From NCBI RefSeq assembly GCF_003334785.1, contig NZ_QOWV01000058.1: a DNA stretch of 1,930 bases; one strand, given 5' to 3'. Each line of letters begins with the position of its first letter. Within the stretch, counting starts at the first letter, position 1. Of the stretch, positions 1 through 1,930 are shown one piece after another. Position numbers and translations under genes: made by a program. The stretch comes from Escherichia coli. GTDB lineage: Bacteria; Pseudomonadota; Gammaproteobacteria; Enterobacterales; Enterobacteriaceae. The notes beneath the pieces were generated by a model, which saw nothing but the letters and a program-made list of their open reading frames with translations, did no database searches and was not told where the DNA came from.

Positions 1-123
1 AACCCCCCGTTCAGCCCGACCGCTGCGCCTTATCCGGTAACTATCGTCTTGAGTCCAACCCGGTAAGACACGACTTATCGCCACTGGCAGCAGCCATTGG
101 TAACTGATTTAGAGGAGTTTGTC

Positions 124-153
124 TTGAAGTTATGCACCTGTTAAGGCTAAACT
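124..153 (+). promoter_or_regulatory. RNA I promoter
   Basis: -35 TTGAAG at 124-129, 18-nt spacer, -10 TAAACT at 148-153, start near 160. Same arrangement as the remembered pMB1/p15A RNA I promoter. Confidence 0.7.
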
Positions 154-159
154 GAAAGA

Positions 160-267
160 ACAGATTTTGGTGACTGCGCTCCTCCAAGCCAGTTACCTTG
201 GTTCAAAGAGTTGGTAGCTCAGCGAACCTTGAGAAAACCACCGTTGGTAGCGGTGGTTTTTCTTTAT
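160..267 (+). ncRNA. RNAI: Antisense copy-number control RNA I (about 108 nt) of a ColE1-family replicon
   Basis: Starts ACAGATTTTGGTGACTGCGCT as in ColE1-family RNA I. It ends in a stem-loop ACCACCG-ttggtag-CGGTGGT followed by a T-run, and the length matches the canonical 108 nt. Confidence 0.85.
237..266 (+). terminator. RNA I intrinsic terminator (third stem-loop plus U-tract)
   Basis: Perfect 7-bp stem ACCACCG (237-243) / CGGTGGT (251-257) with a 7-nt loop, immediately followed by TTTTTCTTT. Confidence 0.75.
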
Positions 268-274
268 TTATGAG

Positions 275-303
275 ATGATGAATCAATCGGTCTATCAAGT
301 CAA
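275..303 (-). promoter_or_regulatory. RNA II (replication primer) promoter
   Basis: On the - strand: -35 TTGACT (+ coords 298-303), 17-nt spacer, -10 CATCAT (+ coords 275-280), predicted start near 268. It sits where the RNA II promoter lies in ColE1-type replicons. Confidence 0.6.
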
Positions 304-323
304 CGAACAGCTATTCCGTTGAC
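299..323. repeat. 7-bp perfect inverted repeat GTCAACG-(11 nt)-CGTTGAC spanning the -35 elements of two divergent promoters
   Basis: GTCAACG at 299-305 and its reverse complement CGTTGAC at 317-323, read directly from the sequence. Confidence 0.8.
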
Positions 324-347
324 AAAAAAACAAGATCTGTACATATT
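319..347 (+). promoter_or_regulatory. Candidate sigma70 promoter for the toxin-antitoxin operon
   Basis: -35 TTGACA at 319-324, 17-nt spacer, -10 CATATT at 342-347, flanked by A7/A6 tracts. A weak SD-like ACGGA lies at 359-363, 8 nt before the ATG at 372. An in-frame stop at 279-281 with no intervening start codon fixes 372 as the start. Confidence 0.5.
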
Positions 348-371: not shown

Positions 372-1412
372 ATGGCACAGAACCCGTTTAAAGCACTAAA
401 TATCAATATTGACAAGATTGAGTCTGCTCTGACGCAGAATGGCGTCACAAACTATTCCTCTAATGTAAAAAACGAAAGAGAAACTCACATATCTGGCACA
501 TATAAAGGAATAGACTTCTTAATAAAACTAATGCCATCAGGCGGAAATACCACTATCGGAAGAGCGTCTGGGCAAAATAACACTTACTTTGATGAAATCG
601 CCTTGATTATAAAAGAAAACTGTTTGTATTCAGACACAAAGAACTTTGAATACACCATTCCAAAATTCAGTGATGATGACAGGGCAAATCTATTTGAATT
701 TCTTTCTGAAGAGGGGATAACAATAACAGAAGATAATAATAACGATCCTAATTGTAAACACCAATATATTATGACCACCAGCAATGGTGACAGGGTCAGG
801 GCAAAAATTTACAAGCGCGGCTCTATTCAATTCCAAGGAAAATACCTTCAAATCGCGAGTTTGATTAACGATTTCATGTGCTCAATACTAAACATGAAAG
901 AGATTGTCGAACAAAAAAATAAAGAATTTAATGTTGACATAAAAAAAGAAACTATTGAGTCCGAGTTGCATAGCAAACTACCAAAAAGCATCGATAAAAT
1001 CCATGAAGATATCAAAAAACAGCTATCATGCTCGCTAATAATGAAAAAAATAGATGTCGAAATGGAAGATTACTCAACATACTGCTTCTCTGCATTAAGA
1101 GCCATAGAAGGCTTTATATATCAAATACTTAATGATGTTTGCAATCCATCATCATCAAAGAACCTTGGCGAATACTTCACTGAAAACAAACCCAAATATA
1201 TAATCAGAGAAATACACCAAGAAACTATAAATGGTGAAATAGCGGAAGTTTTGTGTGAATGCTACACTTACTGGCATGAGAACAGGCATGGTTTGTTTCA
1301 TATGAAACCAGGAATAGCTGACACGAAGACAATTAACAAATTAGAATCAATCGCAATCATCGATACCGTTTGCCAATTAATAGATGGTGGCGTAGCTAGG
1401 TTGAAATTATGA
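372..1412 (+). CDS. rnlA: RnlA/LsoA-family endoribonuclease toxin (RNase LS-like, HEPN-type), 346 aa
   Basis: Long ORF starting at the first ATG after an in-frame stop. C-terminal motif ENRHGLFHM (R305-x4-H310) fits the HEPN R-[NHD]-x3-H signature. LRAIEG (aa 242-247), GEYF (aa 266-269) and the R-H-x-LFHM block match my recollection of RnlA/LsoA. A downstream 126-aa partner overlaps by ATGA, as in rnlAB/lsoAB. Family call is from memory, not a database search. Confidence 0.7.
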   Translation: MAQNPFKALNINIDKIESALTQNGVTNYSSNVKNERETHISGTYKGIDFLIKLMPSGGNTTIGRASGQNNTYFDEIALIIKENCLYSDTKNFEYTIPKFSDDDRANLFEFLSEEGITITEDNNNDPNCKHQYIMTTSNGDRVRAKIYKRGSIQFQGKYLQIASLINDFMCSILNMKEIVEQKNKEFNVDIKKETIESELHSKLPKSIDKIHEDIKKQLSCSLIMKKIDVEMEDYSTYCFSALRAIEGFIYQILNDVCNPSSSKNLGEYFTENKPKYIIREIHQETINGEIAEVLCECYTYWHENRHGLFHMKPGIADTKTINKLESIAIIDTVCQLIDGGVARLKL

Positions 1413-1789
1413 AAAAAGATAAAAAATATCAAATAGAAGCAATAAAAAATAAAGATAAAACTTTATTTATTGTCTATGCTACTGATATTTATAGCCCGAG
1501 CGAATTTTTCTCAAAAATCGAATCCGACTTGAAGAAAAAGAAAAGCAAGGGTGATGTTTTTTTTGATTTAATAATTCCTAACGGTGGAAAAAAAGATCGT
1601 TACGTCTATACGTCATTTAATGGCGAGAAGTTTTCAAGTTACACATTAAACAAAGTTACGAAAACTGATGAATATAATGATTTATCTGAGCTCTCGGCTT
1701 CGTTCTTTAAAAAAAACTTTGATAAGATCAACGTAAACCTTCTATCCAAAGCCACATCATTTGCTTTGAAAAAAGGCATTCCAATATAA
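1409..1789 (+). CDS. rnlB: RnlB/LsoB-family antitoxin, 126 aa, lysine-rich
   Basis: ATG at 1409 overlaps the upstream TGA (ATGA), with an AGG SD-like element at 1398-1400. Size and position match the RnlB/LsoB antitoxin encoded downstream of its toxin. The segment GDVFFDLIIPNGG resembles a remembered RnlB segment. No MNT (GSxxxG/DxD) or HTH motif is evident. Confidence 0.6.
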   Translation: MKKDKKYQIEAIKNKDKTLFIVYATDIYSPSEFFSKIESDLKKKKSKGDVFFDLIIPNGGKKDRYVYTSFNGEKFSSYTLNKVTKTDEYNDLSELSASFFKKNFDKINVNLLSKATSFALKKGIPI

Positions 1790-1834: not shown

Positions 1835-1930
1835 GCCAAAACGCGCTGAACGCGATTCTGACGCAGACACCGCAAAAAGAGATGTTTTCCCCGGGGTAAA
1901 CCGGAAAAATGCGTCAGGATCGCTTTCAGC

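What the first reader, a model, noticed from the sequence alone, without database searches (positions are those of the whole stretch)
1398..1412. Toxin-first gene order with ATGA overlap; antitoxin likely translationally coupled
The ORF1 stop (TGA 1410-1412) overlaps the ORF2 start (ATG 1409-1411), with an AGG SD-like element 8 nt upstream inside the toxin coding sequence. Toxin-upstream order is the reverse of most type II TA operons and is characteristic of rnlAB. Antitoxin supply then depends on coupling or on a promoter internal to the toxin gene; only a weak -35-like TTGCCA (1369-1374) without a convincing -10 is visible.
Basis: seen in the sequence. Interest (0 to 1): 0.45.

Follow-up and report, generated by a model that had tools for sequence, protein, structure and literature searches.

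The report
lsoA–lsoB toxin–antitoxin junction of pOSAK1
The overlapping stop/start is real, but it is the junction of the already characterised LsoA–LsoB anti-phage toxin–antitoxin operon of E. coli O157:H7 plasmid pOSAK1, and how the antitoxin is supplied (coupled translation, its own promoter, or both) is still inference.

Summary
The window is 100% identical to pOSAK1, the 3.3-kb ColE1-type plasmid of E. coli O157:H7 Sakai. ORF1 (372-1412) is LsoA, identical to PDB 5HY3. ORF2 (1409-1789) is LsoB, which matches Pfam RnlB_antitoxin.

The ATGA overlap and the AGG 8 nt upstream are at the stated coordinates. TTGCCA is off by one base (1370-1375).

Toxin-first order held in all 15 family loci I examined. 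The stop/start overlap (-4 or -1) is kept in LsoA relatives down to 45% identity. K-12 rnlAB overlaps by 8 nt. Firmicute and alphaproteobacterial members have gaps of 10-69 nt.

The SD-like element is weak: -3.1 kcal/mol, matched by 18% of positions in the operon. No RNA structure occludes the lsoB start. Coupling is therefore plausible but not enforced and not shown.

A better internal promoter candidate lies at 1333-1360 and is positionally conserved in 8 lineages, but the encoded protein motif explains most of that resemblance. K-12 rnlAB has a published internal rnlB promoter.

Verdict: a correct reading of a known system. Interest is low. The only open point is experimental.

The parts
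319..347 (+). Candidate sigma-70 promoter of the lsoAB operon (TTGACA-17-CATATT, 10/12); predicted transcript start near 354
   Evidence: Promoter scan. The same motif lies at the same distance in 6 of 8 LsoAB-clade lineages and is invariant in the 86-87% relatives. No transcript mapping was available.
372..1412 (+). lsoA, a HEPN endoribonuclease toxin (346 aa)
   Evidence: 100% identical over 346 aa to PDB 5HY3_A, 'mRNA endoribonuclease LsoA'. Pfam RnlA_toxin_N, RnlA_toxin, RnlA-toxin_DBD and HEPN_RnaseLS all match. R305 and H310 of the Rx4H motif are invariant across 7 family members. RefSeq annotates it as lsoA.
1176..1204 (+). Internal promoter-like site TTCACT-17-TATAAT (10/12); weakest-supported candidate
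   Evidence: It scores 8-10/12 in 7 lineages and 4/12 in the most diverged one. It does not exceed synonymous-codon resampling (P=0.09).
1318..1347 (+). Internal promoter-like site CTGACA-18-TAGAAT (10/12); predicted start near 1354
   Evidence: The score falls with divergence (10, 9, 9, 8, 9, 7, 7, 6). The excess over codon resampling (65 vs 54.6, sd 2.6) comes only from closely related lineages, so shared ancestry inflates it.
1333..1360 (+). Best-conserved internal promoter candidate, TTAACA-16-AATCAT (9/12 here, 9-11/12 in relatives); predicted start near 1367, giving a leader of about 42 nt before lsoB
   Evidence: It lies at the same position (-76 to -49 from the lsoB ATG) in all 8 LsoAB-clade lineages. 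It ranks first of 1032 aligned positions in lsoA. However, the protein motif I-(D/N/E)-K...I-I-D alone gives about 9/12: resampled sum 72.3 (sd 2.4) against 79 observed, P about 0.006-0.01. It remains a candidate only.
1398..1401 (+). Weak Shine-Dalgarno-like AGGT inside the last codons of lsoA (R343-L344)
   Evidence: Anti-SD pairing is -3.1 kcal/mol with a 6-7 nt spacing, matched by 18% of positions. GCTAGGTT is conserved in 8 lineages, and the Arg codon is AGG in 8 of 8.
1409..1412 (+). ATGA stop/start overlap (lsoB ATG 1409-1411, lsoA TGA 1410-1412)
   Evidence: Sequence and RefSeq annotation. Relatives keep a -4 or -1 overlap down to 45% LsoA identity. A single column (window 1408, T/A/C) switches ATGA to TAATG.
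1409..1789 (+). lsoB, the antitoxin (126 aa)
   Evidence: Pfam RnlB_antitoxin PF15933, E=4.7e-18. BLASTP to K-12 RnlB gives 29% identity over 63 aa, E=3e-7. RefSeq annotates it as lsoB.

Best explanation
Shown here: the window carries the lsoA-lsoB type II toxin-antitoxin operon of plasmid pOSAK1. LsoA is a HEPN endoribonuclease and LsoB is its antitoxin.

From the literature: LsoB is unstable. Phage T4 shuts off host gene expression, LsoB disappears, and LsoA degrades late T4 mRNAs unless the phage antitoxin Dmd blocks it.

Inferred expression mechanism: a bicistronic mRNA starts at the promoter at 319-347. Ribosomes that finish lsoA at UGA 1410-1412 reinitiate at the overlapping AUG 1409-1411 (termination-reinitiation). 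A weak AGGU at 1398-1401 and an A-rich, unstructured start region help this. The link ties LsoB synthesis to LsoA synthesis on the same mRNA.

This route probably cannot give an excess of a labile antitoxin. A second supply is therefore likely: an lsoB-only transcript from a promoter inside the 3' end of lsoA, as shown for K-12 rnlB. The best candidate is 1333-1360, with 1318-1347 as an alternative.
For: Identity:
- The window is 100% identical to pOSAK1.
- LsoA is identical to PDB 5HY3.
- Pfam RnlA and RnlB domains match.

Biology: PMC5308261 and PMC7167474.

Coupling:
- The -4 or -1 overlap is kept in every LsoAB-clade lineage from 100% down to 45% identity, and a point change switches between the two coupling-competent forms.
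- The SD-like GCTAGGTT and the AGG codon are conserved.
- Four of 5 native E. coli ATGA pairs were coupled, and short overlaps are enriched in heteromeric-complex partners (PMC6728339; PMC10666635).
- The native rnlAB operon expressed from a T7 promoter yields a stoichiometric RnlA:RnlB complex (PMC8266594).

Internal promoter:
- rnlAB has a mapped internal promoter (PMC5535158; PMC7167474).
- The 1333-1360 site ranks first of 1032 positions and is present in all 8 lineages.
- It shows a modest excess over codon resampling.
Against: - No transcript or translation data for lsoAB were available. The primary papers (Otsuka 2010, Koga 2011, Otsuka & Yonesaki 2012) are not in the held library.
- The SD is weak and within the chance range for this sequence.
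- The junction RNA is no more structured than shuffles, and the lsoB start is relatively accessible. Nothing therefore forces dependence on lsoA translation.
- Firmicute and alphaproteobacterial family members have gaps of 10-69 nt.
- Promoter-like sites in the window are no more numerous than in shuffles: 6 found against 5.7 (sd 2.4) expected.
- The 1333 site is largely dictated by the protein sequence, and pOSAK1 has its weakest version.
- Synonymous divergence is not reduced at the 3' end of lsoA.
Confidence: 0.6

Rival explanations
1. Independent initiation. Ribosomes bind de novo at the lsoB start on the bicistronic mRNA, and LsoB synthesis does not depend on lsoA translation. On this view the ATGA overlap is only compact gene packing.
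For: - The lsoB start region is A-rich and unstructured, and its predicted accessibility is in the top 27-30% of the transcript.
- One of the 5 native E. coli ATGA pairs tested (bioBF, with a very weak SD) initiated de novo without coupling (PMC6728339).
- Family members with gaps of 10-69 nt work without an overlap.
Against: - The SD is weak, at -3.1 kcal/mol.
- The overlap class is kept across lineages whose synonymous sites are heavily diverged.
- Most tested E. coli ATGA pairs are coupled.
Confidence: 0.25
2. Internal promoter dominant. As for K-12 rnlB, most LsoB comes from an lsoB-only transcript that starts inside lsoA (near 1354-1367, or near 1211). Translation through the junction contributes little.
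For: - rnlAB and mqsRA have constitutive antitoxin promoters inside the toxin gene (PMC7167474; PMC5535158).
- A promoter-like site is positionally conserved at 1333-1360 in 8 lineages.
- A labile antitoxin encoded downstream needs a supply beyond reinitiation (inference).
Against: - The protein motif alone gives about 9/12 at that site.
- pOSAK1 carries the weakest version, TTAACA-16-AATCAT.
- Promoter-like sites are not enriched over shuffles.
- The mapped K-12 promoter lies about 280 nt upstream, which is not a homologous position, and my scan finds only 8/12 matches in that region of rnlA.
- In K-12 ribosome profiling, RnlB synthesis does not exceed RnlA synthesis.
Confidence: 0.3
3. TTGCCA at 1370-1375 is the -35 of an lsoB promoter just upstream of the junction.
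For: It matches the -35 consensus at 5 of 6 positions.
Against: - With a 17-nt spacer the -10 would be TAGCTA, which matches 2 of 6 (read from the sequence). The resulting start, near 1405, would remove the SD.
- The hexamer reads ATGTCA in the 86-87% relatives.
- A TTGCCA hexamer occurs in 132 of 200 shuffles.
- The promoter scan does not report it.
Confidence: 0.03

Closest known systems
LsoA-LsoB of E. coli O157:H7 Sakai plasmid pOSAK1 (Otsuka & Yonesaki 2012; LsoA-Dmd structure PDB 5HY3)
   Same: It is the same locus. The DNA is 100% identical over all 1930 bases and LsoA is 100% identical to 5HY3_A.
   Different: Nothing differs. What the accessible literature does not report is how lsoB is transcribed and translated.
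RnlA-RnlB of E. coli K-12 prophage CP4-57
   Same: - Toxin-first order.
- The same Pfam domain set.
- Overlapping stop and start.
- An unstable antitoxin and an anti-T4 role countered by Dmd.
   Different: - LsoA shares only about 20% identity with RnlA.
- The overlap is 8 nt with a TTG start, not ATGA.
- rnlB has a mapped promoter about 280 nt upstream inside rnlA, and rnlA is repressed by IscR. No equivalent data exist for lsoAB, and the best lsoA candidate lies at -76 to -49.
Termination-reinitiation at ATGA/TGATG overlaps (Huber et al. 2019 and 2023)
   Same: - A 4-nt overlap, with an SD-like motif inside the upstream gene.
- The partners form a heteromeric complex.
- Relatives toggle between the -4 and -1 classes.
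   Different: Dependence on upstream translation has not been tested for this pair. The SD is weaker than typical, and no occluding RNA structure is predicted.
Other reverse-order type II TA operons (mqsRA, higBA, hicAB)
   Same: The toxin gene comes first, and extra promoters for the antitoxin are reported in some of them.
   Different: The protein families are unrelated. MqsA and HicB bind DNA and autoregulate, whereas no DNA-binding domain was detected in LsoB.

Membership tests
RnlA/LsoA HEPN endoribonuclease toxins | Three-domain architecture (N-terminal domain, N-repeated domain, C-terminal HEPN/Dmd-binding domain) | tested here: met
   Pfam RnlA_toxin_N residues 6-80 (2.9e-11), RnlA_toxin 90-174 (1.2e-29), RnlA-toxin_DBD 191-312 (3e-48) and HEPN_RnaseLS 217-325 (2.8e-13).
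RnlA/LsoA HEPN endoribonuclease toxins | HEPN Rx4-6H catalytic motif | tested here: met
   R305-HGLF-H310. R305 and H310 are invariant in the alignment of 7 family members. The motif definition is from PMC8266594.
RnlA/LsoA HEPN endoribonuclease toxins | Sequence identity to the experimentally characterised LsoA | tested here: met
   346 of 346 residues identical to PDB 5HY3_A, E=3e-234.
RnlA/LsoA HEPN endoribonuclease toxins | Endoribonuclease activity and toxicity that the cognate antitoxin and T4 Dmd relieve | not testable with these tools
   Published for this exact protein (cited in PMC5308261, and PMC8266594).
RnlB/LsoB antitoxins | RnlB_antitoxin domain, encoded immediately downstream of the toxin gene | tested here: met
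   PF15933, E=4.7e-18, residues 20-114. BLASTP to K-12 RnlB gives E=3e-7. The gene is downstream in all 15 loci examined.
Termination-reinitiation coupled gene pairs | Stop/start overlap of 4 nt or 1 nt | tested here: met
   ATGA at 1409-1412. The -4 or -1 overlap is conserved down to 45% identity.
Termination-reinitiation coupled gene pairs | SD motif inside the 3' end of the upstream gene | tested here: inconclusive
   AGGT pairs at -3.1 kcal/mol, and 18% of positions do as well. It is conserved in 8 lineages, but so is the AGG codon in one other Arg column.
Termination-reinitiation coupled gene pairs | Downstream translation depends on ribosomes reaching the upstream stop codon | not testable with these tools
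   This needs premature-stop reporter constructs. Folding shows no occluding structure, so dependence cannot be inferred from the sequence.
Reverse-order TA operons with an internal antitoxin promoter (rnlAB, mqsRA) | A functional promoter inside the toxin coding sequence | tested here: inconclusive
   A conserved promoter-like site lies at 1333-1360, but the protein motif largely explains it. The site count does not exceed shuffles. No start-site data were available.

The most novel reading that the evidence does not exclude
The conserved LsoA HEPN-domain motif I-(D/N/E)-K...I-I-D doubles as a sigma-70 promoter (window 1333-1360) that makes an lsoB-only mRNA. Antitoxin supply in the whole LsoAB clade would then combine an embedded, protein-constrained promoter with termination-reinitiation at the ATGA/TAATG junction. 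The pOSAK1 allele (N322, TTAACA) would be a down-tuned variant.
Probability: 0.35. Interest if true: 0.3.

Novelty: already known. Interest (0 to 1): 0.15.

Why it matters
LsoAB is a textbook plasmid-borne anti-phage toxin-antitoxin system. Its trigger is the loss of a labile antitoxin after phage shuts off host gene expression, so the way LsoB is supplied sets the threshold of that trigger. Learning whether LsoB depends on coupling, on an internal promoter, or on both would refine the model. It would not change the understanding of the system, and the same question has already been answered in outline for the K-12 homologue rnlAB.

Tried and rejected
- The same scan with LsoA alone matched 64 patterns but found no true relative. 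I sampled the family through plasmid tblastn and the protein database instead.
- NCBIfam and PADLOC have no model that matches LsoA or LsoB. Membership therefore rests on Pfam and PDB identity.
- The primary papers on rnlAB and lsoAB regulation are not held. No transcription-start data for pOSAK1 were found.
- A structure-gated coupling model was rejected. The junction fold is no better than shuffles (z -0.15 and -1.16) and the start region is accessible.
- A broad embedded regulatory element in the 3' end of lsoA was rejected, because synonymous divergence is even along the gene.
- An operator-like inverted repeat at the junction was not found.
- The 1318-1347 site's low resampling P (0.0002) was not taken at face value. 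Only closely related lineages carry the excess.

Full report
**What is in the window.** All 1930 bases are 100% identical to pOSAK1, the 3306-bp ColE1-type plasmid of E. coli O157:H7 Sakai (AB011548 / NC_002127, positions 830-2759, minus strand). The same sequence occurs in dozens of other small Escherichia and Salmonella plasmids.

ORF1 (372-1412, 346 aa) is residue-for-residue identical to PDB 5HY3 chain A, 'mRNA endoribonuclease LsoA'. It carries the full RnlA-family Pfam set: RnlA_toxin_N, RnlA_toxin, RnlA-toxin_DBD and HEPN_RnaseLS. ORF2 (1409-1789, 126 aa) matches Pfam RnlB_antitoxin at 4.7e-18 and aligns to K-12 RnlB at E=3e-7. RefSeq annotates the two genes as lsoA and lsoB with the same coordinates and the same overlap.

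The first 300 bases are the plasmid origin. The antisense RNA I lies at 162-265 (Rfam RF00106, 83.7 bits) and its terminator at 233-261.

**Checking the observation.** The ATG is at 1409-1411, the TGA at 1410-1412 and the AGG at 1398-1400, exactly as stated. TTGCCA is at 1370-1375, one base to the right of the stated position.

In this single sequence the SD-like element is not beyond chance:
- AGG at a 5-10 nt spacing occurs at 5% of operon positions.
- Anti-SD pairing as good as the -3.1 kcal/mol found here occurs at 18% of positions.
- lsoA's own SD is equally weak, at -3.3 kcal/mol.

A 4-nt ATGA overlap is the commonest junction class between co-directional prokaryotic genes (PMC10666635).

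**Comparative evidence on order and junction.** I collected 15 RnlA/RnlB-family loci:
- K-12 rnlAB;
- plasmid relatives from E. coli, Klebsiella and Hafnia at 86-87% LsoA identity;
- a graded series at 84, 79, 71, 66, 59 and 45% identity from the protein database;
- distant plasmid members from Bacillus, Carnobacterium, Paracoccus and Lactococcus.

The toxin gene comes first in all of them. Junctions are as follows:

| Lineage | Junction |
|---|---|
| pOSAK1, Hafnia (86%), and the 79, 71, 66, 59% lineages | ATGA, -4 |
| 45% lineage | GTGA, -4 |
| 87% lineages | TAATG, -1 |
| Morganella (84%) | ATGATG, readable as -1 or -4 |
| K-12 rnlAB | -8, with a TTG start |
| Paracoccus, Lactococcus, Bacillus, Carnobacterium | gaps of +10, +17, +25, +69 |

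Among the close relatives a single alignment column (window 1408, T/A/C) converts TTA-TGA to TAA or to TCA-TGA. This toggles between the two overlap classes and leaves the lsoB start and the upstream GCTAGGTTGAAAT untouched.

GCTAGGTT persists down to 59% identity. The Arg codon in it is AGG in 8 of 8 core lineages, and the 45% relative has CGG-AGA, which forms GGAG. One other conserved Arg column, the catalytic R305, is also AGG in 7 of 9, so this is supportive rather than decisive.

**Does anything force coupling?** RNA folding of 1350-1450 and of 1300-1500 is no more stable than dinucleotide shuffles (z -0.15 and -1.16). Local accessibility of the lsoB initiation region is in the top 27-30% of the predicted transcript. 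No structure is therefore predicted that would hide the lsoB start until a ribosome translating lsoA opens it.

Termination-reinitiation remains the most likely route on the bicistronic mRNA, for three reasons:
- Four of 5 native E. coli ATGA pairs were coupled, usually with SD dependence (PMC6728339).
- Short overlaps are enriched in partners of heteromeric complexes.
- The native rnlAB operon driven by T7 yields a stoichiometric complex (PMC8266594).

The fifth pair in that study, bioBF, had a very weak SD and initiated de novo. Independent initiation therefore cannot be dismissed here.

**Internal promoter.** Reviews and a re-analysis of RNA-seq state that K-12 rnlB has its own constitutive promoter inside rnlA, about 280 nt upstream, mapped by Otsuka et al. 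2010 (PMC5535158; PMC7167474).

The scan finds three better sites inside lsoA:
- 1176-1204, TTCACT-17-TATAAT;
- 1318-1347, CTGACA-18-TAGAAT;
- 1333-1360, TTAACA-16-AATCAT.

The total count in the window (6) equals the shuffle expectation of 5.7 (sd 2.4).

Across 8 lineages only the 1333 site is present everywhere, at exactly -76 to -49 from the lsoB ATG, scoring 9-11 of 12. It ranks first of 1032 aligned positions in lsoA, with a minimum of 9 and a sum of 79, against 7 and 69 for the next best.

The site encodes I-(D/N/E)-K...I-I-D. When I resample synonymous codons with each protein held fixed, the site still averages about 9 of 12. The resampled sum is 72.3 (sd 2.4), and P is 0.006 for 8 lineages or 0.01 for 6, both assuming independence. 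Most of the promoter resemblance therefore comes with the protein, and codon choice adds only a modest excess. pOSAK1 has the weakest version.

The 1318 site exceeds resampling only in closely related lineages, and the 1176 site does not exceed it. Synonymous divergence is even along lsoA, with no drop at the 3' end. The internal promoter is therefore a reasonable, precedent-backed candidate, but it is not a finding.

**Mechanism.**

*Shown:* the identity of the two genes, the overlap, the conservation of gene order in the family, and the conservation of the overlap class within the LsoAB clade.

*From the literature:* LsoB is unstable. T4 infection shuts off host expression, LsoB disappears, and LsoA degrades late T4 mRNAs unless Dmd blocks it.

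*Inferred:* transcription starts at 319-347, a site conserved in 6 of 8 lineages and invariant in close relatives. Ribosomes reinitiate at AUG 1409 after terminating at UGA 1410-1412. A supplementary lsoB-only transcript probably starts inside lsoA.

**Novelty and score.** This is the known lsoAB system, and toxin-first order in the rnlAB family is textbook. The remaining uncertainty, coupling versus an internal promoter, is a modest question that only experiments can settle, and it is already answered in outline for rnlAB. Interest is low.

**Limits.** The three primary papers were not available, and no start-site data for pOSAK1 were found. The resampling P values assume independent lineages and are therefore optimistic.

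Noticed in passing
window 162-265 (+), terminator 233-261: ColE1-type antisense RNA I (Rfam RF00106, 83.7 bits), so window 1-300 is the plasmid replication origin. RNA I runs in the same direction as lsoAB, and its terminator ends 58 nt before the lsoA -35 hexamer.
   Followed up: partly
L008 280-1197 (Carnobacterium plasmid) and L010 163-1083 (Lactococcus plasmid): A 'ribonuclease H family protein' gene sits directly upstream of the rnlA homologue, 3 nt and 15 nt away, forming an apparent three-gene RNase H-rnlA-rnlB operon. This fits the published dependence of RnlA/RnlB on host RNase HI.
   Followed up: no
plasmid hits H83 (Priestia aryabhattai NZ_CP024037.1) and H84 (Bacillus sp. CP095862.1): Proteins annotated 'viroplasmin family protein' match LsoA residues 95-338 at 24% identity. 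They may be fusions of an RNase H/viroplasmin-like domain with an RnlA-like toxin.
   Followed up: no
window 1332-1340 (LsoA I321-N322-K323): pOSAK1 has Asn (AAC) where six of the other seven core lineages have Asp (five GAC, one GAT) and the 66% lineage has Glu (GAA). This turns the TTGACA found in five of those relatives into TTAACA, so pOSAK1 carries the weakest version of the conserved internal promoter-like site.
   Followed up: partly
window 335-346: A short palindrome, ATCTGTACATAT with a TGTACA core, lies in the spacer of the upstream promoter candidate. It reads TGCACA in two 87% relatives, so it is probably not an operator.
   Followed up: partly
L002 2485-2492 (E. coli K-12 rnlA/rnlB junction): rnlB is annotated with a TTG start that overlaps rnlA by 8 nt. 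It is preceded by CAAGGAC, which pairs at -5.1 kcal/mol. This is a different junction solution from lsoAB within the same family.
   Followed up: partly
window 1886-1909 (- strand): A terminator-like hairpin on the minus strand lies downstream of lsoB, facing the mobA side of the plasmid. No plus-strand intrinsic terminator is predicted after lsoB within the window.
   Followed up: no
L018 179-1282: The 59%-identical LsoA homologue is called at 367 aa, 21 residues longer at the N-terminus than the others. This may be a start-codon miscall on a short metagenomic contig.
   Followed up: no
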